Sequence record: NC_048204.1
Direction: 5' to 3' (one strand)
Origin: Escherichia phage vB_Eco_mar001J1
DNA length: 50,343 nucleotides
Positions 1-50,343 of this stretch are shown here, piece after piece; the stretch's first letter is position 1; each line of letters starts with the position of its first letter. A program made the position numbers and the translations under genes. The notes under the pieces are model-generated. The model was not told the origin of the DNA, ran no database searches, and saw only the letters and a program-made list of their open reading frames with translations.

Positions 1-127
1 AAAATTATGTCCAGCAAGTTTTTAGTAGTTCGCGTATATAATCATGACAACGAATCTTCTTCTGAAATCCCGACAATTTATGACAGGGATTTTGGATGGA
101 GTGAGCAATCGGCTGTTGAAAATGAGC
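1..127. repeat. Terminal direct duplication: 1-127 is identical to 50217-50343 (circular permutation or assembly overlap)
   Basis: Exact match of window start and end read directly from the sequence. Confidence 0.9.
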
Positions 128-3594: not shown

Positions 3595-3626
3595 TTTTAT
3601 TTCCTCATGTTTGCTTCGTTGAAATA

Positions 3627-3670
3627 ATTATGCCCGACACTAGGCCGGGCGTTTTAACAAAAAGTGCTAT
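3627..3670 (-). promoter_or_regulatory. Cassette promoter candidate: 20-mer ATAGCACTTTTTGTTAAAAC + 18 bp (GC hairpin) + CATAAT
   Basis: Motif overlaps stop of 3670..3927; 22 bp from TTGTTA to the hexamer; almost identical to inverted copy at 50143-50186. Confidence 0.55.
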
Positions 3671-4657: not shown

Positions 4658-4697
4658 TTTCATTTCTCCGCTATTAAAAGCCATCTCGTGTTATTGA

Positions 4698-4741
4698 ATT
4701 ATGGCGCAATCCATCGCGCCAGTTTTAACAAAAAGTGCTAT
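4698..4741 (-). promoter_or_regulatory. Cassette promoter candidate (20-mer, hairpin GGCGCGATGGATTGCGCC, CATAAT)
   Basis: Same geometry as other copies; overlaps stop of 4738..5157. Confidence 0.55.
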
Positions 4742-5157
4742 TTAAGCATGTATTCAATAGCCAACTTAAACTGATTGAATCCGTAGGCTACCGCAGCGAA
4801 TCCTCCTAAGCTGCGAACGCGACGCAAAAAAGCCTTTTGTTCATCGCTGACTGGTGATGCTTTCCCCTTGCCTGATTTATTCACTCGTTTGATCTCAATC
4901 GCTGCAAAGGGGTATTTTCCGTTTAAACCAATCAGGATGATGAAATCGCTTACTCCCTTAACCAAGCCGGACTGCTGATCAATCATCGCCGTTGCTTTAG
5001 ACTTCTCATTCTCGTTTACCGTATGCCACGCCAGCAAATAAGGATGAGCATAAGTCAACCACTGAAAACTATCTATCTGGTGATTAACTTCCCTTCTCGT
5101 GTCGGTTGGATCCCTTTCGTAAAACTCAAGATAATCGCCTTTATCAGTTATAGCCAT
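4738..5157 (-). CDS. VRR-NUC domain nuclease
   Basis: PD-(D/E)XK-like segment GVSDFIILIG...AAIEIK in a 139-aa protein. Confidence 0.6.
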   Translation of the reverse strand: MAITDKGDYLEFYERDPTDTRREVNHQIDSFQWLTYAHPYLLAWHTVNENEKSKATAMIDQQSGLVKGVSDFIILIGLNGKYPFAAIEIKRVNKSGKGKASPVSDEQKAFLRRVRSLGGFAAVAYGFNQFKLAIEYMLK

Positions 5158-7154
5158 TAAACAAACTCCCGTTTTGCAATGTTATCCTCACCTTTGCCGT
5201 TTTTGCGATGCGTTACGCGTACAGGAGGCATGATGTGATGAGCGTATGACATTATTTTACGCGCATTTCTATAGCTCGCCACCATACCAGCAATCTTGCG
5301 ATCCGGTATGTGCTGCAATGCTATTTTTCTCCATATCGTCCGGCAAATGTTGCTTTCTGACTCAGGGAAAAATCTTTCGTATGCCTTGAATGTGTCGCCG
5401 TTGGCCTCAAGCTCATAGCAAAAAACAATTCCTTTCTGGTTTTTCGTCATATCAACGCGGAAAGATTTAACGTTGCACCAATCGTTTTTGGTGTAGTGCT
5501 TGCCGCTTAACTTCTCGTTAGGATCGACAAGAGAAATATCGCAACAACGGCATACTCTCGCCACTACGTCGTTTTTTGTTCCGCAACCGCGCTTGATTAT
5601 CTTTTTCGTTCTCGGATCTACATGGTCCTCGCAAATTCTGTAAGTCCAAAAATGCTCGCATCTCTTTCCGTTATCGTCTACGTGCATACATCGGCGAGCG
5701 TAAAAGCTGTTTAGCGTTCCACATATCGGGCAAGTCTTAGGCTCTTTCCCGTTTGTAAATCTCTTTTGAAATTGCGCTTGCTCAAGAATTGGATCGAAAT
5801 ACAAATCCCCTAACTCATCCATAGTACCTGCAAAATCCAATACAAGATGATCTTTTTTCTTGAATCCCTGCTCAATGTGCCATTGCTTAAGCAGTCGCAT
5901 ACCGCGCCCCAAAAGCTGGATAAGCAATGTTAGAGATCCTATCTTTCTCAGTATTACCGAAGTATCCCAAAACGGAACGTTAACGCCAGTGGTAAGCGCC
6001 TGTACCTGGAAGATGTATTTTACTTTTCCCTCGTATGCCTCCCTCAGCCACTCTTTACGCTGATTGTCTCCAGTCTTGCCAGTTATGATCCTGTATTCGA
6101 CGCCTGGCGGAAGTGCGGCGGCGGCCTCCTTGCAGTGTCTTTCCCCTGCGCATGTAACTAAAACTCCGTTCCTGTCTTTGCATATCTCATGGACTTTAGC
6201 CATGATTTTCTGTGTCATTGTTGCGTCTTGATGGATCTTTTCTTCCATCTTGCGCAATGTTTTAGCGTCAAAGTCTGAAACGCCATCCTCGCTACTTGCT
6301 TCGAACTCTGAAAGGTCATACCCCAGGTCGCCTACGTCGCCGAAATTTGTTGGCACTACAGAACCGAATTTGATTAAGTAGTTTGTGTCTATGTTAGTCA
6401 CCTGCTCACGCCAGAATCCCTTTTTGTTCTTATCTTCAACCAGTATTGGAACCACGCCGCGAAACTCAGATCCAGTCATACCGAATATTCGCAATTCGTG
6501 CCCGTATGCCTCGCGACACCTGCGCATCATTTCCATGATTATTACGGTGTACTGTGTGCGCCCTGTTCCGAACATTGGATCGCCATTGGAATCAAATTGC
6601 TGTTCTTCTCCAATCAGTACAGGCAAATCCTTCTTAGTGGTCATCTGCTGGTAAGATTCATTATTTTCTATCGCATCAGCGAGATCCTCCCAATCCACCT
6701 GGTGACATTCATCAATACCGATAACGTGCGGAACATAATCACCTAACGACTTAAACAATCCGTTTACTACAGTGCCCTCAGAACCGACTACGATCGGAAA
6801 GTATGCGCTTTTTGTTTTCAGTCCGGCGCAATAGATTGAGTTTGGCACGCCAAGATTGCTGATCTCTTCCGAATCCTGATCAACAATTTCAGCCTGGCGA
6901 GCAAGGACCATCATTTTCAATCCCATTTTGCGGCATTGCGCAGCAACCATCGCAAACATCAAAGTTTTGCCAGCCGACACAGAAGCCTTAACGAAGAAAG
7001 GATGCTCATATTTTTTCATGCGCTTTGCGATCTCGGCATACGCAACGCACTGATAAGGATAAGGCACTATATTGCCAACCGTGAATCGCTCTTGGATGCT
7101 TTTTATTACTGCCTCGCCTAACGCTGATATTTGTTTTTCGATATTTGGGATCAT
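5157..7154 (-). CDS. SF2 ATP-dependent DNA helicase with C-terminal zinc-ribbon region
   Basis: Walker A SVSAGKTLMFAMVAA, DECH box, C-terminal CPICG...CRCC cysteine cluster. Confidence 0.8.
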   Translation of the reverse strand: MIPNIEKQISALGEAVIKSIQERFTVGNIVPYPYQCVAYAEIAKRMKKYEHPFFVKASVSAGKTLMFAMVAAQCRKMGLKMMVLARQAEIVDQDSEEISNLGVPNSIYCAGLKTKSAYFPIVVGSEGTVVNGLFKSLGDYVPHVIGIDECHQVDWEDLADAIENNESYQQMTTKKDLPVLIGEEQQFDSNGDPMFGTGRTQYTVIIMEMMRRCREAYGHELRIFGMTGSEFRGVVPILVEDKNKKGFWREQVTNIDTNYLIKFGSVVPTNFGDVGDLGYDLSEFEASSEDGVSDFDAKTLRKMEEKIHQDATMTQKIMAKVHEICKDRNGVLVTCAGERHCKEAAAALPPGVEYRIITGKTGDNQRKEWLREAYEGKVKYIFQVQALTTGVNVPFWDTSVILRKIGSLTLLIQLLGRGMRLLKQWHIEQGFKKKDHLVLDFAGTMDELGDLYFDPILEQAQFQKRFTNGKEPKTCPICGTLNSFYARRCMHVDDNGKRCEHFWTYRICEDHVDPRTKKIIKRGCGTKNDVVARVCRCCDISLVDPNEKLSGKHYTKNDWCNVKSFRVDMTKNQKGIVFCYELEANGDTFKAYERFFPESESNICRTIWRKIALQHIPDRKIAGMVASYRNARKIMSYAHHIMPPVRVTHRKNGKGEDNIAKREFV

Positions 7155-7186
7155 CTTAAACCTTTAAAAAATGCCATTTAGAGTAT

Positions 7187-7230
7187 ATAATAGACTCATT
7201 ACAATAAACTGTTTTAACAAAAAATGCTAT
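7187..7230 (-). promoter_or_regulatory. Cassette promoter candidate upstream of helicase gene (20-mer + 18 bp + TATTAT)
   Basis: ATAGCATTTTTTGTTAAAAC on coding strand, 22 bp from TTGTTA to TATTAT; divergent region also holds a plus-strand TATAAT at 7186-7191. Confidence 0.5.
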
Positions 7231-7241
7231 GAGGTGACTAG

Positions 7242-7718
7242 ATGAAAGATGCACGAATTGCAGTGTCTACGGGTGAGATCGACAAGCGCACTATTAACGG
7301 TAACAACGGAACGCGACGAGGTAAAGACAAAAAGCCACGAAAACACCGAACCGGATTTCTTATCCTGCGAGATGAGGTAAAAGCAAGCCTGAAATCTCGC
7401 CTTGACATTCTGATCGAGTATTACGGCGGTGTTCCTGCTATGGCTCGACGTCTACGCGTATCTCAGCAAGTCGTTAACCAGTGGCGAAAGCGTGGCATGA
7501 TTTCAGCCGCTGGAGCACAAAAGGTGCATAACGACTACAAATATAATGGGTGCAAAGGATACCGCGCATCATTTTGTCGTCCAGATCTGCGGTTTGATTC
7601 TAACGGCAAGCCTCTTACTACCCGTTGCGACAAATACGAAATGTTGCGCGTAGTCAAAAATTCAGACTACGAACCAGGCGGACGATTCTACAAAGGTGAT
7701 AACAGCACGAATAGCTAA
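7242..7718 (+). CDS. Cro/YdaS-family helix-turn-helix DNA-binding protein
   Basis: YGGVPAMARRLRVSQQVVNQWRKRGMIS segment; GAGGTGA RBS. Confidence 0.55.
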   Translation: MKDARIAVSTGEIDKRTINGNNGTRRGKDKKPRKHRTGFLILRDEVKASLKSRLDILIEYYGGVPAMARRLRVSQQVVNQWRKRGMISAAGAQKVHNDYKYNGCKGYRASFCRPDLRFDSNGKPLTTRCDKYEMLRVVKNSDYEPGGRFYKGDNSTNS

Positions 7719-15424: not shown

Positions 15425-18400
15425 CCAGCTTCCCGTAATCCTTCCGACTTCAACCCTCAATACTCCGTTTGCATCTTTTACCTTCAATCCTTCGTTGGTG
15501 AATTTAGTAGCTCCCTCTCCTGGAGTTGATCCGTAGTTTTCAAATATTCCGTTTTTATCAAGCCTCCAACCTTGCTGATTTTGAACAAAATTGTTTGACT
15601 GAATAACATTTCCAATCATGGCATTCGTTATGGACCCGTTTTTCACTAACAAGCTGTTAATGAAAACTTGGTTGTTTTCAACAACGAAAGGCAATGTAAA
15701 CGTACCGCCCGTAGAGCTAGTCATGATCGCGAACCTGTTAGCATCGAACAAGATTTGCGAGATCAGGCCTTGAGAAGATTGCGACAACTGCATGATCATG
15801 CCTGCGCTGTACTTCTGCCCCTTGTAAGTAAGGCCCAATTTCATAGCGTACTTAGCGCCAACCGAATCAACGTTGGCCCACGAATCAAGTTTTTGAGCTA
15901 ATGCAGATTCAACGTCTCCAAATTTGGCTGTTAAAGCCTGGTCAGCCTGAACCCTTGCCTCTGTCTCATTGGCGATCGCCTGTTTCACTTCTGAGATGTC
16001 AGCCTCGACTTCTGTTTTGATAACTCCGTCAAGGTCGTTTATCTCTTTCGTGAACTTAGCGTCAAGCTGCTGAACGGCCTGAGCGCGCGCTTCTGATTCA
16101 TTGGCAATGGTTTGCCTTACCTCGCCAATACTTGCAGCCGTATCTCGTTTTACGCCGTCTATTTCCTTCGTAAATTTAGAATCAAGCTGCTGAACTTGAG
16201 TAGCTCGCGTCTCTGATTCGTTGGCAATCGCTTCCTGAACGGTTTTGATACTTGAAACTATATCTTCATCAATTGACGCCCTTAACTCTTCGATTTGAGT
16301 TACGCGCGCCTCCGTTTCGGTAGCAATAAGCTCCAGTGCATGACCATATTCAGCCTTACGCTTTCCGTTTTGTACTCGCGTCCACTTCACATCAGCATCG
16401 TTTGCCAATGCGTTCTGGATGATTGATTGCGCCTGGTCTTTGATTTTGTTTGCACTGTCTATGGCGTTCTCTTTGATTTCTTGGCCCGCTTCGGTATCAA
16501 AAATCTTGTCCAGAATGTCGCCTAAAACAGATTCAACATCATCTGACGCCATGCCGCGAACAAAGTCAGTCCAGCCGGAAACGTTGCCGATCCTGTCAAC
16601 GCTACGGATTCTATACCATACAACTTGACCAGCTGGTAACGTGCTATGCCAATACTCATATTGAGGATATGGAATCAGCGTAAGCAGGCTTGAGTTTTCA
16701 ACCGTTCCGTCTGGAGATTGGTGAAGCTCAATGTAAGCCGTATCGCCTGATCCTTCCGGCATACCCCATTTGACACGAATGCCAAAAACTTCATTATCAG
16801 AAGCTGTAAGATTAATCGGCGCTCCTGGCTCGCCAACTTTACCTGTCAAGGTGGCGGTTGCAATCTTTGACCACGGGGAGGTGTTACCGCTTGCAGAAAC
16901 AGATCTAACCCTTACTTGATAGTTCCCTGAATAAATTCCTTCTACCTCTATCTCTTTGTTAGCTGTCTGCGGCGTATTCAGCCAGTTGCCATCACCTTTT
17001 CGCCACTGCATTTCATAAAGAGATGCGTAAGGAACCTTATCCCATGAAACAACCATAGTCTCAACGCTAACGCCCTGCACGACGCGAGAATAAGATGAGA
17101 TCTGCACGTTCTCAGGCGCTACCATCATGTCAGGCTGAACAATTGAAGTTGGTCTGTCATCAATGTTTACGCCATAATCAATCTCGTCGTATTTGTTCGG
17201 ATCGTACTCTACAGCCGTGATTGAATAGGTAAACTCGTTTTCGTCATCACCCTTGCTGATAGTTGTCACAACGTATTGCTGCAACGCAAGGTCAGTACGG
17301 TCAATCGCAAAAACAGTGTCAGGCTTAACATCAAAACCAAATCCAATATTTAACTCAATGGTTTTTCCGTCTGCGCTAACCTTTGAGATCGTGCGCTTAA
17401 CTGGCTTGCCGTCCGGCTTGTTGATGATAATAAAATCACCAGGACGAGCATCAACCTTAAACGGAACGAAAACCTGCAATCCTGAAACTTCCATCACTCG
17501 GCCCGATAGGTTTAACGTTAGGTTGCTGCTCTGAAAATTATCAGCGATAGCAATCACATCACCTATTGATGGAATCATCCCCTCTAGTCCGGTAGCAAAG
17601 TTTACAGTAGTGCTTCTAAGGTTTGTTTTCAAAACCCACCTACCGCGACGATTCGCTTCGCTCCTGCGTGTGCACCCGATCGCTGTAATGCTTGTTGGAT
17701 TGTATCCAAATCGTAATGCAGCCTCAGTATCAAAAACCCCCTCTACGTCCTGCTGATACATGTTTTGTTCGTCGTCAAACGTCACGTTACACTGCGTGTA
17801 CATGCTTTTTTCGCTTGCGGTTGTGTACTGAAAATCACCGTTGATGACGTTTTCATTAGTAAACACGTATGATGGATCGCGCGGCTTATCAATCACGATT
17901 GATAAACTCTCACCATTCCAAAAGCTCATTCCGCGAAAGATTGAGCAAATGTCACGGATTAGCTGATAAGCCTCAACCTGATTCTGGATCACCACATCGC
18001 ATAGGTAGCGAGGCTCTGTACCGCCCTTACCGTCTGGAACTTTCTGATCACAGTAAACGCCTGCTTCGTATAAGCTCCACTTGTCGATCTGTATTCCTAA
18101 CTCTCGCTGGTCAAGCCCATAACGCTGATTCGTCACCAGATCATAAAGAACCCATGCAGGATTATTTGACCACGCTTTTTTAAAAGTCCCATCCCATGAC
18201 CCGTGATATTCTCTTGATATTGGATCATAGTTGCTTGGCACATTAATAATCTTCCATTTCTTTTTTATAGAAATGTTAGGGATTTGTGTAGGAAACAATT
18301 CGCTGTCAAATTCTACAAATACAAGGCCAGTCAGAGGATAACGGAATTTTGCATCCACAACCTCAGCGTAACTTTGCAGTTTGATTTTATCAGTCACCTT

Positions 18401-21714: not shown

Positions 21715-21742
21715 TCAATAAAAAAGCCGCACAAAGGCGGCT
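21715..21742 (-). terminator. Intra-operon terminator/attenuator between M and L
   Basis: AGCCGC...GCGGCT stem followed by TTTTTATT. Confidence 0.6.
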
Positions 21743-24822: not shown

Positions 24823-25456
24823 TATGTTTTGTTTGAATGAATCATTTCTAGCGCCTTTTGTTCCATGATGCGCAAATCATTTAGCGCCATCTCCCGATCC
24901 TCAATCTTGTAAATGTCAAAAAGCATAGGCAAAACGTTATAGTCGAACCCATACACGCTGCCGCTAGTCGATCTCCATTGCGTCTGCATAGCGCAAAACA
25001 GATCCCAAGATTGAAACATTGATTCATCAAAAATTACCTCCGGCGGATCCTCCCCTTCGTAGTCTGAACGGGATAGGCCGACGGCCTCTAATTGTGCGTC
25101 AGTTGGCGGCTTGAGGTAAAACAGGTAAACCGCCCGCTTTAGTTTTTTACCCGCTGCCCCGCAAGTGCTTTCATATAATGACCAGTCAGCGATAATGACG
25201 CAGAAGGGTAATAATCCAGCAATTTAGCAACGTTTTCCTCGTTAAATTCATCTTCCAGATCCCAACCGGAAGCAAGGAAGGTGATCATTTCTACGTCGCT
25301 CATCGGCTTTTCTGCCGTGTATCGTTCGTGAATCTCGCTTGCCTTCTTGTGGCGCACGGTAAAAACAATAACTTGCTCATCACCATTTGGAAGCACAAAA
25401 GAAACAGGTAGCTTAAAATCAGGCAGTGGGCCTAACGTTAGTTTCATCTTTGCCAT
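24822..25456 (-). CDS. Tail assembly chaperone GT fusion made by -1 ribosomal frameshift
   Basis: Downstream -1 frame is open from the slippery site to 24822; standard G/GT arrangement before the tape measure gene. Confidence 0.6.
25139..25456 (-). CDS. Tail assembly chaperone G
   Basis: 105 aa, acidic; AAGGAG RBS; ends at the slippery site. Confidence 0.7.
   Translation of the reverse strand: MAKMKLTLGPLPDFKLPVSFVLPNGDEQVIVFTVRHKKASEIHERYTAEKPMSDVEMITFLASGWDLEDEFNEENVAKLLDYYPSASLSLTGHYMKALAGQRVKN
25142..25148 (-). other. Programmed -1 frameshift slippery heptamer A AAA AAC
   Basis: Heptamer sits immediately before the G stop codon. Confidence 0.6.
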
Positions 25457-25470
25457 CTCAAGATCTCCTT

Positions 25471-25490
25471 ATAGCACTTTTTGTTAAAAG
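25471..25490 (+). repeat. Inverted cassette 20-mer immediately 5' of the chaperone G RBS
   Basis: ATAGCACTTTTTGTTAAAAG reads on plus strand while flanking genes are on minus; TAGATT lies 22 bp downstream on plus. Confidence 0.5.
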
Positions 25491-25532
25491 TGGAATTGAT
25501 TTATTTGATAGATTGATTTTACAGGAATGAAA

Positions 25533-25557
25533 AAAGGGGCGCAACGCCCCTTGTTTT
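25533..25557. terminator. Bidirectional stem-loop after the tail tube gene
   Basis: GGGGCGC a ACGCCCC flanked by A-run and T-run. Confidence 0.65.
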
Positions 25558-26218
25558 AATTGATGTCGGAAGATAAGAACGTAAATCGACCTTTCAGAGA
25601 TACGGAAAGGGAAACAGTTTCCATTTCGTTCATAGTGGTTTGCGGAATGTCATTAAAAGACAATACGCCAGCCCAGCAACGCATCTCTTTAGCTTTCGGC
25701 ACGTACATACGCAAAGCGGTTACGTCGCCGGATTCCTCAGCCTCGCGCAAGATCGGATAAATCGGATTATCATATTCATGTGCGAAAGTATAGGTAAGAG
25801 AAACGGCGCTCTTGTAGGTCGGCAACTGCTGCTCCTGGTCATCAGCCAAACACTGATAAGTGTAATACTGTTGCTCGCCGCCGTCCTGCGCAAGATCCTG
25901 TACGCAAGGAATCTCTACCCATGATTTTACTTCTCGGAAGGTTGCTGTATTTTCGCCAACAGGAAACACGTTAGTATCAGTAGTATCAACCCCTTCAAGG
26001 GTAACATTTTCATTATCGGTAACAGCCTTAACGCGCAACACACGGCTAACCAACTTACCCCACGAAGACGTCTCAATCAGAACATAAGCGCCCTTCTTGA
26101 TATTTTTTGTGTCGCTCGCTGTAAATACAGGCTCCTTAGCGTTAGTGATAGCCGTAGCCTGAATCGGATCGCCCATATTAACGCCGATGAAAATTTGAGA
26201 ACCATTAGGCAAGTGCAT
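25556..26218 (-). CDS. Major tail (tube) protein
   Basis: Position immediately upstream of G/GT; 220 aa. Confidence 0.6.
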   Translation of the reverse strand: MHLPNGSQIFIGVNMGDPIQATAITNAKEPVFTASDTKNIKKGAYVLIETSSWGKLVSRVLRVKAVTDNENVTLEGVDTTDTNVFPVGENTATFREVKSWVEIPCVQDLAQDGGEQQYYTYQCLADDQEQQLPTYKSAVSLTYTFAHEYDNPIYPILREAEESGDVTALRMYVPKAKEMRCWAGVLSFNDIPQTTMNEMETVSLSVSLKGRFTFLSSDIN

Positions 26219-28206: not shown

Positions 28207-29178
28207 TTACTCAGCTTTTTTCAAGCCGGTAATGAGCACCATCGTAAACGGACGATAAATCGTAAGGCCAGTACACTTGGAAGTGCAAGGAACCTTGAAA
28301 TGTAGGTCTTTTGGCTGCGCCGGAAGCATGTTAAACGCTTCTGGAATCTCAATGCTCATGTTCATTGGATCTTTTTCGTAAACCAAGCAACCTTTCGTAC
28401 CTTTGCCGTCAATATCCTCAAGCTCTGCGATAGAGTCGATAGTGATACCGCCGTTTTGCTTCTGGAAGTATTCCAGATAACTTTCAGTGGTATTTTCCAT
28501 TCGAACCGTCAGGACTTTGCGCATGGACGGCGGGATCAGGATGTTAGTCGCGCGGTGCTGGCCTTTGGTCACTTCCTCGATCGTTTCGATTGCAGCCTCC
28601 AGTTCATCGCTTGCTACCTGCGGGAATTTGGTATTGCCGTCATTGCTCATCCAGCCTTTAGAAACAATTTTCGTAAGGTTAGGATGATCGAAAACGGAAA
28701 CGATCTTGTGAGGCTTGGAACCCTTGAACACCAGGAAGTTAATCAACTGATCATGTGCATTTTGCGCAGCGTTAGCCTTGCGAGTTGACAGGCTCTTGCC
28801 AGTTCGCTGACCTGTTTTAATCTCATCAATGGAGATCAGATAAGCGTTACCCAGGCGGAACACTTTGCCAAACTCAGAAGTCATCAACGCGTCCACAGTC
28901 GGCAGATCATCGGTGTAGTCGGCGATAATTTTCGCATAGCCAACCTTATCAAAAGTCTGATATTCGAAAGTCTTGTCAGTATCAGAAAGCTCGTTTGTTA
29001 CAGGGAATACACGAAGCGCGGAACCTGCCGGATACTCTTTCTCGTATGCGTTAGAGCGGATCTTGTGTAGCTCTTGAGCGGTCCAAATACCCATATCAGA
29101 AGCGTCGGACTTAACACCCTGAATCTGCAAATGATTTGCTACAATAGTAGCATCTAATTCATCATATTTTTTAGCCAT
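28207..29178 (-). CDS. Major capsid protein
   Basis: 323 aa in the expected position; strong GGAGG RBS; own promoter and downstream terminator. Confidence 0.7.
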   Translation of the reverse strand: MAKKYDELDATIVANHLQIQGVKSDASDMGIWTAQELHKIRSNAYEKEYPAGSALRVFPVTNELSDTDKTFEYQTFDKVGYAKIIADYTDDLPTVDALMTSEFGKVFRLGNAYLISIDEIKTGQRTGKSLSTRKANAAQNAHDQLINFLVFKGSKPHKIVSVFDHPNLTKIVSKGWMSNDGNTKFPQVASDELEAAIETIEEVTKGQHRATNILIPPSMRKVLTVRMENTTESYLEYFQKQNGGITIDSIAELEDIDGKGTKGCLVYEKDPMNMSIEIPEAFNMLPAQPKDLHFKVPCTSKCTGLTIYRPFTMVLITGLKKAE

Positions 29179-29219
29179 TTTGTTTCCTCCATAAAAGGCC
29201 GTTACATTTAACGGCCTAG

Positions 29220-29247
29220 ATGATAGCACTTTTTGTTAAAGCGTCAA
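29220..29247 (-). promoter_or_regulatory. Sigma70-type promoter for capsid gene (TTGACG, 16-bp spacer, extended -10 TGcTATCAT)
   Basis: The spacer and extended -10 are the inverted cassette 20-mer (plus 29223-29241); 5'-UTR hairpin GGCCGTTAAATGTAACGGCC follows. Confidence 0.55.
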
Positions 29248-29259
29248 AGCGTTTTTATG

Positions 29260-30273
29260 TTATTCAGGATCGGTGATGGTTAGTCTTTGCTGACCTTTAA
29301 CGCCAGAACCATCAGCAGCGGTCCAGATAACATCAACCTCGCCAGCGGCGATAGTAGTTACTAGTCCAGTACCAGGATCTACAGATGCAAAATCACCACT
29401 TGACAAAGACCAAGAACCGGATTTATTTGTAGCACCTTCTGGAGCAACGACAACGCTCGCCTGAACGGCTTCACCAACAAGTGCAGAATTTTTCTCAAGG
29501 CTTACGGTTGCACTAGCGACGCTAACAACAGCTTTTTCGAATTGATAAACAATCGTGGCCTTAGTCTTGCTTCCATCGTTAGCAGTCCAATTTACGTTTA
29601 CACTACCGAATGCATCACTACCAACAGGAGTTAGAATACCTGTATCGGCATCAATAGTCGCAATGTTTACAGCATCAACAGACCAAACACCAGTTTTATC
29701 GGTGGCGTTGCCAGGCTCTACTGTGATACTGCATTTTACAGGAGCATTGTTTGGCTGCGGACTCTCCTTGTCAGTGTTAATTGTTGCAGACTCTACCAGC
29801 ACCACAGGAGGCGGAGGGGGTGGAACGATGAGAGCATTTTGCTTCACCTGAACCTCAATAATGTGACCGTCTTCGTGCTTAACAAAGCCACCAGCAAAGG
29901 TCCAGCCAACATAATCATCTACGCCAGTTACTACTCCTCCAACACCGATTTTTAGTTTTGAGAATGATTTCGGGGCTTCACTAAGAGAAGTAAGCGCCCA
30001 CACCCGACCGTGAGAAACGACGTTACACACCTCTCCGTCGAGAATTTTACCGCTCAGGTGCTCATATTGGGAACGAAAAGCGATGCCGTAAGGAGTTTCA
30101 CCATCAGAAATCGCCGTCACAACCCTCATTCCATCCACTATTCCGACAACCCGAACCGCTGATCCAAACTCAATATCACCTTGAGCAACACAAGCGCCAT
30201 CAATGTTATAGGTTGAAGTATCAGAGAGATTGCCAGGACATGCATAGTGCAGCATTAAATTTTCATAAGCCAT
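29260..30273 (-). CDS. Head decoration protein paralogue with C-terminal Ig-like extension
   Basis: N-terminal region paralogous to 30334..30813 (TYNIDGACV, PYGIAFRS, HGRVWALTS, AGGFVKH), then PPPPPP linker and beta-rich repeats. Confidence 0.55.
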   Translation of the reverse strand: MAYENLMLHYACPGNLSDTSTYNIDGACVAQGDIEFGSAVRVVGIVDGMRVVTAISDGETPYGIAFRSQYEHLSGKILDGEVCNVVSHGRVWALTSLSEAPKSFSKLKIGVGGVVTGVDDYVGWTFAGGFVKHEDGHIIEVQVKQNALIVPPPPPPVVLVESATINTDKESPQPNNAPVKCSITVEPGNATDKTGVWSVDAVNIATIDADTGILTPVGSDAFGSVNVNWTANDGSKTKATIVYQFEKAVVSVASATVSLEKNSALVGEAVQASVVVAPEGATNKSGSWSLSSGDFASVDPGTGLVTTIAAGEVDVIWTAADGSGVKGQQRLTITDPE

Positions 30274-42064: not shown

Positions 42065-42096
42065 TTTTGTTTCCTCAATCTCGTTTCGATGAGGCT

Positions 42097-42140
42097 ATTA
42101 TGCCAGGCTTTGCGCCTGGCGTTTTAACAAAAAGTGCTAT
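42097..42140 (-). promoter_or_regulatory. Cassette promoter candidate (20-mer, hairpin CCAGGCGCAAAGCCTGG, CATAAT, TCGAAACGA leader)
   Basis: Consensus copy; overlaps stop of lipoprotein gene. Confidence 0.55.
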
Positions 42141-46992: not shown

Positions 46993-47032
46993 CACTTTTT
47001 GTTAAAAGCCAGGTGTAAAAACCTGGCATAAT
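46989..47032 (+). promoter_or_regulatory. Cassette promoter candidate (20-mer, hairpin CCAGGTGTAAAAACCTGG, CATAAT, CCGAAACGAAAGGAG leader)
   Basis: 22-bp spacing; overlaps TAG stop of the methyltransferase-like gene. Confidence 0.55.
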
Positions 47033-50186: not shown

Positions 50187-50343
50187 TGTTTCATCGAAAC
50201 GAAACAACCAAAAGGTAAAATTATGTCCAGCAAGTTTTTAGTAGTTCGCGTATATAATCATGACAACGAATCTTCTTCTGAAATCCCGACAATTTATGAC
50301 AGGGATTTTGGATGGAGTGAGCAATCGGCTGTTGAAAATGAGC

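What the first reader, a model, noticed from the sequence alone, without database searches (positions are those of the whole stretch)
25471..25557. Inverted cassette copy in front of tail chaperone G, with a possible tiny antisense transcription unit
Within the minus-strand late operon the 20-mer ATAGCACTTTTTGTTAAAAG reads on the plus strand (25471-25490). On the minus strand it lies directly 5' of the AAGGAG RBS of gene G, so it would be in the G mRNA leader. On the plus strand it keeps the cassette geometry (22 bp, then TAGATT at 25509-25514) and is followed after about 20 nt by the hairpin GGGGCGCAACGCCCC plus a T-tract (25536-25557). That could give a roughly 35-nt plus-strand RNA antisense to the 3' end of the tail tube gene, or a protein-binding site that modulates late expression.
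Basis: partly seen in the sequence, partly recalled or inferred. Interest (0 to 1): 0.55.

Follow-up and report, generated by a model that had tools for sequence, protein, structure and literature searches.

The report
Backward promoter cassette before tail chaperone gene
A complete copy of the T1-like phages' repeated promoter cassette sits backwards between the tail tube and tail chaperone genes, back to back with a predicted late promoter, and it has been kept across distant relatives, so it probably helps control late gene expression rather than being a leftover.

Summary
The window is Escherichia phage vB_Eco_mar001J1 (Drexlerviridae). The 20-mer is at 25471-25490 (+), TAGATT follows at the cassette spacing, then a two-way terminator hairpin.

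The 20-mer is the known 21-nt repeat of T1-like phages, whose function is unknown (PMC11447400). In four genomes about 60 copies share one layout: 20-mer, 18 nt, -10 hexamer, start codon about 75 nt on.

The copy before G is a full cassette facing backwards.
- All 24 distinct relatives that carry it keep TG-n-TAnnnT at offset 18; 10 sequences without the 20-mer have none.
- 20-mer identity is 0.95; spacer identity is 0.42.
- Its promoter score is the median of gene-driving cassettes.

It abuts a conserved sense promoter. That promoter's -35 (TTGC) lies in the tube terminator loop, 17 bp from TAAAAT. Predicted start sites are 12 bp apart and diverge.

Best reading: a two-way promoter whose antisense arm competes with, or blocks, late sense transcription. 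The ~37-nt RNA is plausible here, but the plus-strand T-tract is missing in T1-like relatives.

The repeat core is the inverted repeat TAGCA-N5-TG(C/T)TA, centred at -42, which suggests a dimeric regulator. No transcript data exist.

The parts
25471..25490 (+). 20-mer repeat ATAGCACTTTTTGTTAAAAG, an inverted copy of the Drexlerviridae 21-nt repeat. It spans -50..-31 of the predicted plus-strand promoter.
   Evidence: Searches give the copy number. One search gives mean pairwise identity 0.95 across 24 distinct homologous sequences. One search gives the consensus published for TLS.
25472..25486 (.). Pseudo-palindromic core TAGCA-N5-TGTTA, a candidate operator for a dimeric DNA-binding protein. 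Its centre, 25479, is at -42 of the plus promoter and about +31 of the sense promoter.
   Evidence: in 62 gene-driving cassettes the half-sites match 5/5 in 25 and 4/5 in 32. The binding protein is inferred, not shown.
25491..25505 (+). Variable part of the spacer. Its length is fixed but its sequence is free.
   Evidence: mean pairwise identity 0.42 and no indels among the 24 unique sequences.
25506..25514 (+). Extended -10 element TGaTAGATT of the antisense (plus-strand) cassette promoter.
   Evidence: TAnnnT at offset 18 in all 24 distinct 20-mer-bearing sequences aligned with no requirement on that hexamer (9 different hexamers), TG at -15/-14 in most, and absent from all 10 unique sequences that lack the 20-mer. 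The independent IMG/VR scan gives 19 of 19, with 10 hexamers.
25521..25523 (+). Predicted plus-strand transcription start (A at 25521, 7 nt after the -10, or A at 25523).
   Evidence: Inferred from the -10 position. Not mapped experimentally.
25516..25521 (-). -10 hexamer TAAAAT of the predicted sense promoter P_G.
   Evidence: TAnnnT (TAAAAT, TACAAT, TAATAT, TAGAAT or TATAAT) in every relative analysed, with or without the 20-mer.
25539..25544 (-). -35-like TTGCGC of P_G. It lies in the loop and descending stem of the tube terminator, 17 bp upstream of TAAAAT.
   Evidence: 17-bp spacing in 30 of the 36 relatives in which the hairpin was found (16 in four, 15 in one, none called in one); the same design at two more late terminators in this phage (near 21734 and 19065), and in T1 and TLS.
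25509..25509 (-). Predicted sense transcription start of P_G, 12 bp from the plus start. The two starts diverge.
   Evidence: Inferred from the -10 position. Not mapped experimentally.
25534..25552 (.). GC-rich hairpin. It is the intrinsic terminator of the tail tube gene on the minus strand and terminator-like on the plus strand in this phage.
   Evidence: both strands.: -14.2 kcal/mol on +, z -3.0. T1 annotates the homologous terminator.
25551..25557 (+). Plus-strand T-tract TTGTTTT. It would end the antisense RNA at about 37 nt.
   Evidence: among 20-mer-bearing sequences it is present only in this phage and in L002 and L003.
25454..25470 (-). Shine-Dalgarno AAGGAG (25470..25465) and ATG (25456..25454) of tail assembly chaperone G.

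Best explanation
Positions 25471-25514 hold a complete, selectively maintained copy of the T1-like phages' repeated promoter cassette: the 20-mer, an 18-nt spacer, and an extended -10. It points away from gene G.

It lies back to back with a predicted sigma-70 late promoter for G, called P_G here. P_G's -35 (TTGCGC) sits in the loop of the tube-gene terminator. Its -10 (TAAAAT, 25521..25516) lies 1 bp from the cassette's -10. The two predicted start sites (25521 on +, 25509 on -) are 12 bp apart and diverge, so the pair forms a two-way promoter.

RNA polymerase can occupy only one orientation at a time. Whatever activates the cassettes would therefore load polymerase backwards here. That would occlude P_G. 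It would also put an obstacle in front of polymerases that read through the tube terminator, holding down G/GT and tape-measure expression relative to the tube protein, probably early in infection.

In this phage the backward transcript runs straight into the two-way terminator and would be a by-product of about 37 nt.

Shown: sequence anatomy, conservation pattern, and geometry. Inferred: that either promoter fires, the direction of the regulatory effect, its timing, and the identity of the factor that recognises the 20-mer.
For: (1) The cassette is a promoter-type unit.
- In the window, T1, TLS and Rtp, about 60 copies have a -10 hexamer at or within 1 nt of offset 18 (exactly 18 in nearly all). 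Most have an SD and start codon about 75 nt from the motif start.

(2) The G-site copy is kept as a promoter.
- All 24 distinct homologous sequences with the 20-mer have TAnnnT at offset 18, using 9 different hexamers.
- 21 of the 24 have TG at -15/-14; in the other 3 it lies one base nearer the hexamer (GTG).
- All 10 distinct sequences without the 20-mer lack TAnnnT there (Fisher p = 2e-8 on the 21 + 10 sequences tabulated there; the sequences are phylogenetically related).
- An independent IMG/VR scan that did not require the hexamer gave 19 of 19.
- 20-mer identity is 0.95 against 0.42 for the spacer, with no indels.
- Its PWM score over positions 1-44 is at the 48th percentile (window) and 50th percentile (T1) of gene-driving cassettes.

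(3) The sense promoter.
- TTGC in the terminator loop, then TAnnnT, is present in every relative analysed, including those without the cassette. The spacing is 17 bp in 30 of the 36 where the hairpin was found.
- The same terminator-loop design recurs at three late terminators each in this phage and T1, and at two in TLS. All 8 are at exactly 17 bp.

(4) A parallel inside the same genome.
- The helicase/regulator region (about 7150-7245) is a two-way promoter. There the 20-mer lies just 5' of the divergent gene's SD.

(5) Published work shows that activating one arm of an E. coli bidirectional promoter represses the other through polymerase competition. Divergent start sites 10, 18 and 23 bp apart are the common classes (PMC12825309).
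Against: - There are no transcript, start-site or binding data for any T1-like phage in the searchable literature. Promoter activity on either strand is therefore unproven.
- P_G has a weak -35 (3 of 6) and was not called by the consensus scanner.
- TTGC/GCAA loops are common in this family's terminators. Part of the -35 conservation could reflect hairpin preference rather than promoter function.
- About a third of the sampled lineages, including TLS, lack the cassette here. Rtp has a forward cassette plus an extra gene instead. The element is therefore dispensable in some backgrounds.
- The 12-bp start-site separation is between the published common classes.
- The cassette has no canonical -35, so how polymerase recognises it is unknown.
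Confidence: 0.5

Rival explanations
1. Pure operator or roadblock. The 20-mer is only a binding site for a phage (or host) dimeric DNA-binding protein. Bound at about +31 of P_G, it blocks or pauses sense transcription into G. The plus-strand -10 contributes nothing, and no antisense RNA matters.
For: - The repeat core is an inverted repeat, TAGCA-N5-TG(C/T)TA, with half-sites one helical turn apart.
- The phage encodes a conserved protein with a Cro-like HTH. That protein's own leader carries the repeat at about +26.
- Repeat-like sites also lie in or just downstream of other predicted late promoters, where no divergent -10 exists. These are the major-capsid site (centre about -18), the portal site (34070-34051) and the J leader (19021-19002).
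- The TLS authors raised a stoperator-like role.
Against: - It does not explain why TG-n-TAnnnT at offset 18 co-occurs perfectly with the 20-mer while the hexamer's inner bases vary.
- It does not explain why the spacer length never changes.
- No binding data exist.
Confidence: 0.2
2. The product matters. A small plus-strand RNA (about 37 nt here, longer elsewhere) is the effector. It is antisense to the 3' end and terminator of the tube mRNA and to read-through transcripts, and it changes their stability or termination, as lambda OOP and P22 sar RNAs do.
For: - Promoter features are conserved.
- In this phage the start site, A-rich 5' tail, stable hairpin and U-tract give a tidy sRNA-like molecule (-14.2 kcal/mol, z -3.0).
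- There is a weak, sub-threshold resemblance to Rfam STnc50 (35 bits against a gathering score of 55).
Against: - The plus-strand T-tract is absent from most lineages that carry the cassette, so RNA length and 3' end are not conserved.
- The RNA would not overlap transcripts that start at P_G.
- The transcribed segment is constrained anyway, as the sense terminator's U-tract and P_G's spacer. Its conservation therefore says nothing about an RNA.
- Rfam finds nothing at gathering thresholds.
Confidence: 0.12
3. An RNA-level leader element. The reverse complement of the 20-mer in the G mRNA 5' UTR (CACUUUUAACAAAAAGUG, a 7-bp hairpin here) tunes translation or stability of G/GT.
For: - It touches the SD in this phage, and the regulator gene has the same arrangement.
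- The fold shows a small hairpin.
Against: - The leader fold is no better than shuffled sequence (z -0.7 and +0.1).
- The 7-bp stem needs the two bases after the 20-mer, which are not conserved.
- In the T1 group the 20-mer is 9 nt from the SD.
- One lineage (L014) carries the GAA/TTGC subtype of the repeat. It varies at the same positions as the DNA-level cassettes.
Confidence: 0.06
4. A neutral relic. The cassette is a leftover of a mobile promoter module, or of a lost antisense gene, at a junction prone to insertions.
For: - Presence and absence vary between lineages as a clean block of about 30 bp.
- Rtp has a forward cassette plus an extra gene at the same junction.
- Cassettes flank many small accessory genes.
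Against: - The 20-mer is nearly invariant and the -10 signature is intact across genera whose spacers have diverged to 42% identity.
- A neutral relic would have decayed like the spacer.
Confidence: 0.05

Closest known systems
21-nt intergenic direct repeats of T1-like phages (aaATAGCACnnnTTGnTAAAA; TLS DR1-DR18; also noted in T1, Rtp and Rogue1)
   Same: The sequence is the same, matching every specified position, and the copy is intergenic. The function is unknown: the authors list it as an open question and mention stoperators, enhancer sites and UP elements (PMC11447400).
   Different: The published description says the repeats lie in the direction of transcription, about 76 nt upstream of start codons. 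This copy is inverted inside the late operon and has no gene downstream. TLS itself lacks it. TLS Table S1 does list the inverted capsid-site copy (DR7) but does not discuss it. The fixed 18-nt distance to a -10, the palindromic core and the -42 position are not in that paper.
Bacterial bidirectional promoters (pseudo-symmetric -10 regions driving divergent transcription; Grainger laboratory)
   Same: There are two -10 elements on opposite strands within one polymerase footprint, and the predicted start sites diverge by about 12 bp. Binding in the two orientations excludes each other. Activating one arm represses the other by polymerase competition (PMC12825309).
   Different: The common published spacings are 18, 10 and 23 bp. 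Here the two hexamers are adjacent rather than overlapping. One arm leads to a terminator rather than a gene. Activity is only predicted.
Class II activator-dependent promoters (CRP or FNR at -41.5; lambda CI at OR2, -42, activating PRM while repressing divergent PR). Cited from established knowledge.
   Same: A roughly 15-bp inverted-repeat site is centred at -42. It takes the place of a recognisable -35, and the -10 is good or extended. The same bound protein could activate one promoter and hinder the oppositely oriented one.
   Different: No protein has been shown to bind. The repeat has strongly conserved asymmetric flanks (A1, C7, T11, AAA17-19). Whether the site activates or represses is unknown.
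Short phage antisense RNAs: lambda OOP (antisense to the cII 3' end) and P22 sar (antisense to ant). Cited from established knowledge.
   Same: A small RNA would have its own promoter and a terminator, and would be transcribed against the 3' end of a neighbouring gene.
   Different: Here the RNA's 3' end is not conserved between lineages. Its overlap with the tube mRNA is only the stop codon and the terminator. Nothing shows that the RNA exists.
PeSL mobile promoter-stem-loop cassettes of T4-type phages. Cited from established knowledge.
   Same: Repeated promoter modules, often with a stem-loop between the repeat and the -10, flank small accessory genes and vary in presence between relatives.
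   Different: Sequence and geometry differ. Mobility or recombination at these repeats was not tested here.

Membership tests
Drexlerviridae 21-nt repeat (TLS DR family) | Match to the consensus aaATAGCACnnnTTGnTAAAA | tested here: met
   25471-25490 has 0 mismatches at the specified core positions. The consensus comes from PMC11447400.
Drexlerviridae 21-nt repeat (TLS DR family) | Intergenic, oriented with transcription, about 76 nt upstream of a start codon | tested here: not met
   The copy is intergenic but on the strand opposite the late operon. No SD-led ORF follows within 200 nt. The plus strand runs into the tube terminator and then the antisense of the tube gene.
Cassette promoter (20-mer, 18 nt, then -10) | -10 hexamer TAnnnT exactly 18 nt after the 20-mer, usually with TG at -15/-14 | tested here: met
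   TGaTAGATT is at 25506-25514. All 24 distinct homologues have TAnnnT at that offset, and so do all 19 in the independent scan. The PWM score is at the 48th percentile of gene-driving copies.
Cassette promoter (20-mer, 18 nt, then -10) | Leader (CATCGAAACGA-like), SD and gene downstream | tested here: not met
   No gene follows. The 10-codon ORF at 25527-25559 has no usable SD, and its ATG is not conserved.
Canonical sigma-70 promoter | -35 hexamer 16-18 bp upstream of the -10 | tested here: not met
   For the plus promoter the -35 position reads AAAAGt. TTGTTA is 22 bp from the -10, and the scanner finds no site. For sense P_G, TTGCGC-17-TAAAAT matches only 3 of 6 plus 5 of 6.
Bidirectional promoter | Opposed -10 elements giving divergent start sites about 10, 18 or 23 bp apart | tested here: inconclusive
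   The predicted start sites, 25521 (+) and 25509 (-), are 12 bp apart. Both TAnnnT elements are conserved. The published classes are in PMC12825309.
Bidirectional promoter | Divergent transcripts demonstrated | not testable with these tools
   No transcriptome or start-site data for T1-like phages were found.
Bidirectional intrinsic terminator | GC-rich hairpin flanked by an A-tract on one side and a T-tract on the other | tested here: met
   AAAAAA, hairpin, TTGTTTT; called on both strands. Among cassette carriers the plus-side T-tract is confined to this phage and two close relatives.
Rfam STnc50 (RF02059) | Score at or above the family's gathering threshold | tested here: not met
   35 bits against 55. 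There are no Rfam hits at gathering thresholds anywhere in the window. The consensus hits unrelated Salmonella loci.
Class II activator site | Inverted-repeat operator centred near -41.5 | tested here: met
   TAGCA-N5-TG(C/T)TA is centred at -42, measured from the start site implied by the -10. This is geometry only.
Class II activator site | A dimeric activator binds and contacts polymerase | not testable with these tools
   The candidate is the protein with a Cro-like HTH at 7242-7718. No binding evidence exists.

The most novel reading that the evidence does not exclude
The repeat may be the operator of one phage regulator, the candidate being the conserved 158-aa protein with a Cro-like HTH. 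That regulator would run the whole early-to-late programme of T1-like phages.

- Centred at -42, it would switch on about 15-20 early promoters that lack a -35.
- At late promoters it would sit in blocking positions: about -18 at the major capsid promoter, overlapping the portal promoter, about +24 in the J leader, and +31 at G.
- At G it would in addition recruit polymerase backwards onto a decoy promoter that fires into a terminator.

Late genes would come on when the regulator is diluted or titrated, for example by the rising number of operator copies on replicating genomes.
Probability: 0.2. Interest if true: 0.75.

Novelty: new variant of a known kind. Interest (0 to 1): 0.55.

Why it matters
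T1 was one of the first phages studied, yet how T1-like phages time their genes is unknown. They encode no polymerase or sigma factor, and only three ordinary sigma-70 promoters could be found in TLS. The 2024 TLS re-annotation lists the function of the 21-nt repeat as an open question.

This analysis turns the repeat into a defined promoter architecture: a palindromic core at -42 and a -10 exactly 18 nt downstream. The exceptional inverted copies sit precisely at predicted late promoters that are built into terminators.

That gives a concrete, cheap-to-test model for early/late control and for setting the tube-to-chaperone-to-tape-measure ratio. It also supplies natural controls, namely related phages that lack the G-site cassette.

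Tried and rejected
- Literature searches for the repeat sequence, and for T1-like transcriptomes or start-site maps, found only the TLS paper.
- Rfam found nothing at gathering thresholds. I followed the sub-threshold STnc50 hit. The literature hits were for STnc500. The consensus matches unrelated Salmonella loci. I rejected it as a family assignment.
- I considered a sigma-54 promoter, because TAGCAC...TTGC resembles TGGCAC-N5-TTGC. I rejected it. The two blocks are 2 bp too close, many copies have TTGTTA, and a sigma-70-type -10 sits at a fixed distance.
- I considered TTGTTA as a true -35. I rejected it because it is 22 bp from the -10 in every copy.
- I considered a sense-strand promoter that reuses the reverse complement of the 20-mer (TGCTAT...) at the G site, as happens at the capsid site. 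I rejected it. The hexamers there (TATAAG, TATCAA, TATTTA) lack the final T, and no TTG lies upstream.
- I considered a small plus-strand ORF (MKKGAQRPLF, 25527-25559). It has no usable SD and its ATG is not conserved.
- The long plus-strand hairpin 25490-25522 depends on the non-conserved spacer, so I ignored it.

Full report
**Identity and context.**
The window is the complete genome of Escherichia phage vB_Eco_mar001J1 (NC_048206/LR027388). It belongs to Drexlerviridae, Tempevirinae, Warwickvirus, and the sequence is 100% identical to the record but rotated. The late structural operon lies on the minus strand. ORF 25556-26218 (-) is the tail tube protein (PF08813, E 7e-65). ORF 25139-25456 (-) is a tail assembly chaperone of the G type (PF08748, E 5e-31).

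**Observation.**
- The 20-mer is at 25471-25490 (+) and directly abuts the AAGGAG of G on the other strand.
- TAGATT is at 25509-25514.
- The hairpin is at 25534-25552, with TTGTTTT after it.
- The 20-mer has 14 copies with <=3 mismatches, against 0 expected. A degenerate pattern finds 18 copies.

**What the repeat is.**
It is already in the literature. The 2024 TLS re-annotation reports 18 intergenic 21-nt repeats, aaATAGCACnnnTTGnTAAAA. It says they lie in the direction of transcription, about 76 nt before start codons. It notes them also in T1, Rtp and Rogue1. It lists their function as an open question and mentions stoperators, enhancer sites and UP elements (PMC11447400).

I fetched T1, TLS and Rtp and analysed all copies in the four genomes.
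- About 60 copies have a -10 hexamer (TATAGT, CATAAT, TATAAT and similar) at or within 1 nt of 18 nt after the 20-mer; it is exactly 18 in nearly all.
- Most have TG at -15/-14, a CATCGAAACGA-like leader, and an SD plus start codon about 75 nt from the motif start.
- The repeat is therefore the upstream half of a rigid promoter cassette and occupies -50..-31.
- TTG(C/T)TA lies 22 bp from the -10, so it is not a normal -35.
- The invariant positions form an inverted repeat, TAGCA-N5-TG(C/T)TA. It is perfect in 25 of 62 copies and has one mismatch in 32.
- That core is centred at -42. The flanks are conserved but asymmetric.
- This is the geometry of a class II activator site for a dimeric protein (established knowledge: CRP and FNR at -41.5, lambda CI at -42).
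- The only annotated regulator is a 158-aa protein with a Cro-like HTH at 7242-7718. That it binds the repeat is my inference.

**The G-site copy in relatives.**
A search with the tube protein returned 53 related loci from IMG/VR, with tube identity from 92% down to about 61%, T1 included, and two remote ones at 33%.
- The 20-mer never occurs in the sense orientation in these late regions.
- It occurs inverted at two fixed places: before G, and before the major capsid gene.
- At the G site, 24 distinct sequences carry the 20-mer.
- All 24 have TAnnnT at offset 18, using nine different hexamers.
- 21 of the 24 have TG at -15/-14; in the other three it lies one base nearer the hexamer.
- The spacer keeps its length but not its sequence. 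Mean pairwise identity is 0.42, against 0.95 for the 20-mer.
- Ten distinct sequences lack the 20-mer through a clean difference of about 30 bp. None of them has TAnnnT there.
- A second, independent scan of IMG/VR was anchored on the 20-mer and the sense -10 only. It gave 19 distinct sequences, all with TAnnnT, using ten hexamers.
- A leave-one-out weight matrix built from gene-driving cassettes puts the promoter part of the G-site copy at the 48th percentile (window) and the 50th percentile (T1). The capsid-site copies fall at the 5th to 18th percentile.
- One lineage (L014) carries the GAA/TTGC subtype of the repeat. The G-site copy therefore varies as the other cassettes do.

A neutral relic is thus excluded. 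The element is maintained as a promoter-type unit facing away from G.

On the late (minus) strand, every relative analysed, with or without the cassette, has TTGC in the loop of the tube terminator. It is followed by TAnnnT (TAAAAT, TACAAT, TAATAT, TAGAAT or TATAAT). The gap is 17 bp in 30 of the 36 relatives in which the hairpin was found.
- In the window the -35 is at 25544..25539 and the -10 at 25521..25516.
- The predicted start is at 25509.
- The same design, a terminator loop TTG.., then 17 bp, then TAnnnT, recurs near 21734 and 19065 in this phage. It also recurs at three late terminators in T1 and two in TLS.
- All eight cases are at exactly 17 bp and in the sense orientation.
- This fits the earlier description of the T1 late region as a series of modules bounded by terminators and containing RpoD promoters, as quoted in PMC11447400.

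The cassette's -10 (25509-25514) and the sense -10 (25516-25521) are 1 bp apart on opposite strands. Each predicted start site falls on the -12 position of the other promoter. The starts are 12 bp apart and diverge. This is the anatomy of a bacterial bidirectional promoter. For those promoters, start sites 10, 18 and 23 bp apart are common, and activating one arm represses the other by polymerase competition (PMC12825309).

The helicase/regulator intergenic region of this same phage (about 7150-7245) is a second example, of the 18-bp class. There the 20-mer again lies immediately 5' of the divergent gene's SD.

**Most likely mechanism.**
Whatever turns the cassettes on loads polymerase backwards at the G site. 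A polymerase at this promoter covers roughly 25466-25541. That span includes P_G's -10 and most of its spacer, and it faces polymerases that read through the tube terminator. The expected result is lower or delayed expression of G/GT and the tape-measure gene relative to the tube protein.

In this phage the backward transcript would be 37 nt, made of an A-rich 5' end, the hairpin and UUGUUUU (-14.2 kcal/mol, z -3.0). However, the plus-strand T-tract is absent from most lineages that carry the cassette. The T1 group has TGTGGAT. A defined tiny RNA is therefore not the conserved feature; the promoter is.

The steps from "conserved promoter-like unit" to "fires", "competes" and "early" are inferences.

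**Rivals.**
- A pure operator or roadblock role is plausible, given the palindromic core and the other late sites. It does not explain the perfectly co-occurring -10.
- An effector antisense RNA is possible in this phage but is poorly conserved.
- A leader-RNA role is unlikely. The leader folds no better than shuffled sequence, and the distance to the SD is not conserved.

**Related late sites (context).**
- Before the major capsid gene, the inverted repeat forms the spacer and the extended -10 of a near-consensus sense promoter. That promoter reads A-tract, TTGACG, 16 bp, TGcTATCAT. A hairpin follows at the 5' end of the transcript, then the SD. The arrangement is conserved in about 36 distinct sequences, with -10 variants TATCAT, TATATT and TATTAT.
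- A sense copy overlaps a TATAAT before the portal gene.
- A degenerate sense copy fills the J leader.

**Novelty.**
The repeat itself is known. The following are not in the literature I could search:
- the rigid distance to the -10;
- the palindromic core at -42;
- the inverted G-site cassette and its conservation;
- the terminator-embedded sense promoters;
- the two-way arrangement.

I rate this a new variant of known kinds (bidirectional promoter, antisense promoter, activator-site promoter). It is of moderate interest because it makes an acknowledged open question directly testable.

Noticed in passing
window 29178-29290 (minus strand); 20-mer copy at 29223-29242 (+): This is the second inverted copy. 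Its reverse complement forms the spacer and the extended -10 of a near-consensus sense promoter just before the major capsid gene: ATAACATAAAAA, TTGACG, 16 bp, TGcTATCAT. A hairpin then sits at the predicted 5' end of the mRNA (AGGCCGTTAAATGTAACGGCCT), followed by GGAGG and the ATG. The arrangement is conserved in about 36 distinct relatives, with -10 variants TATCAT, TATATT and TATTAT. In the plus orientation only TG-n-TA is kept and the final T of the hexamer is missing. TLS lists this copy as DR7 without comment.
   Followed up: partly
window about 25544, 21734 and 19065 (minus strand); T1 (L055) 18777, 22799, 24978; TLS (L056) 22725, 24865: Late-operon terminators carry TTG(C/T)(G/A)C in the hairpin loop, exactly 17 bp upstream of a TAnnnT hexamer. 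The terminator and the next promoter are therefore fused. All 8 cases found are at 17 bp, and all are in the sense orientation of the late operon.
   Followed up: partly
all repeat copies, for example window 40156 (-), and 34070-34051 (-): The repeat core is an inverted repeat, TAGCA-N5-TG(C/T)TA, with half-sites one helical turn apart. It is centred at -42 of the cassette promoters. The conserved flanks are asymmetric (A1, C7, T11, AAA17-19). This suggests a dimeric HTH protein acting from a class II activator position.
   Followed up: partly
window 7150-7245: The divergent helicase (5157-7154, -) and Cro-like HTH regulator (7242-7718, +) genes share a two-way promoter. Their -10 elements overlap (TATAAT at 7186-7191 on +; TATTAT at 7193..7188 on -). 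The 20-mer (7231..7212) lies directly 5' of the regulator's SD, at about +26 of its predicted transcript. This layout is consistent with autoregulation.
   Followed up: partly
window 34070-33995 (minus strand): A sense-oriented copy with a perfect palindrome (ATAGCACTAATTGCTAAAAA) lies right after the large terminase stop codon. It is followed 4 nt later by TATAAT, then by a hairpin with a T-tract, then the portal gene's SD. This geometry differs from the cassettes, and the repeat would overlap the promoter.
   Followed up: no
window 19021-19002 (minus strand): A degenerate sense-oriented copy (ACAGCACAAAAGGTTAAAAG) fills the leader of the tail-tip J gene, 2 nt before the ATG and downstream of a terminator-embedded TTGCGC-17-TATAAT. 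It corresponds to TLS DR8 and is also present in T1. No -10 can follow it, so any role there must come from binding or from the RNA.
   Followed up: no
spacers of gene-driving cassettes, for example window 42101..42084, 4702..4683, 47009-47026, 3631..3613: The 18-nt spacer between the 20-mer and the -10 often forms a GC-rich hairpin whose sequence differs between copies (gccaggcGCAAagcctggc, tggcgcgatggattgcgcca, ccaggtgtaaaaacctgg). In other copies the hairpin encloses the -10. These may be 3'-end hairpins of the upstream transcripts tucked inside the next promoter. The function is unexplained.
   Followed up: no
Rtp (L057) 16303-16380: At the same tube-to-chaperone junction, phage Rtp has a forward-oriented cassette (TATATT at offset 18) driving an extra gene, rtp34. 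The junction therefore accepts cassettes in either orientation. Other forward cassettes in late regions drive HNH endonuclease genes, for example window 19597 (-).
   Followed up: no
window 1-127 and 50217-50343: The first and last 127 bases of the window are identical. The deposited record likewise repeats its first 127 bases at its end. This is probably an assembly overlap of a circularly permuted genome, so the unique length would be 50,216 bp.
   Followed up: yes
window 25479-25562 (+): There is a sub-threshold Rfam match to STnc50 (RF02059): 35 bits against a gathering score of 55, full model length. The family consensus matches only unrelated Salmonella loci in the phage collection. The hit is most likely generic resemblance, AT-rich sequence followed by a terminator.
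   Followed up: yes
window 25527-25559 (+): A ten-codon ORF (MKKGAQRPLF) lies on the predicted antisense RNA, with AGGA directly against the ATG. The ATG is missing in several relatives (AATAAA), so the ORF is probably meaningless.
   Followed up: yes
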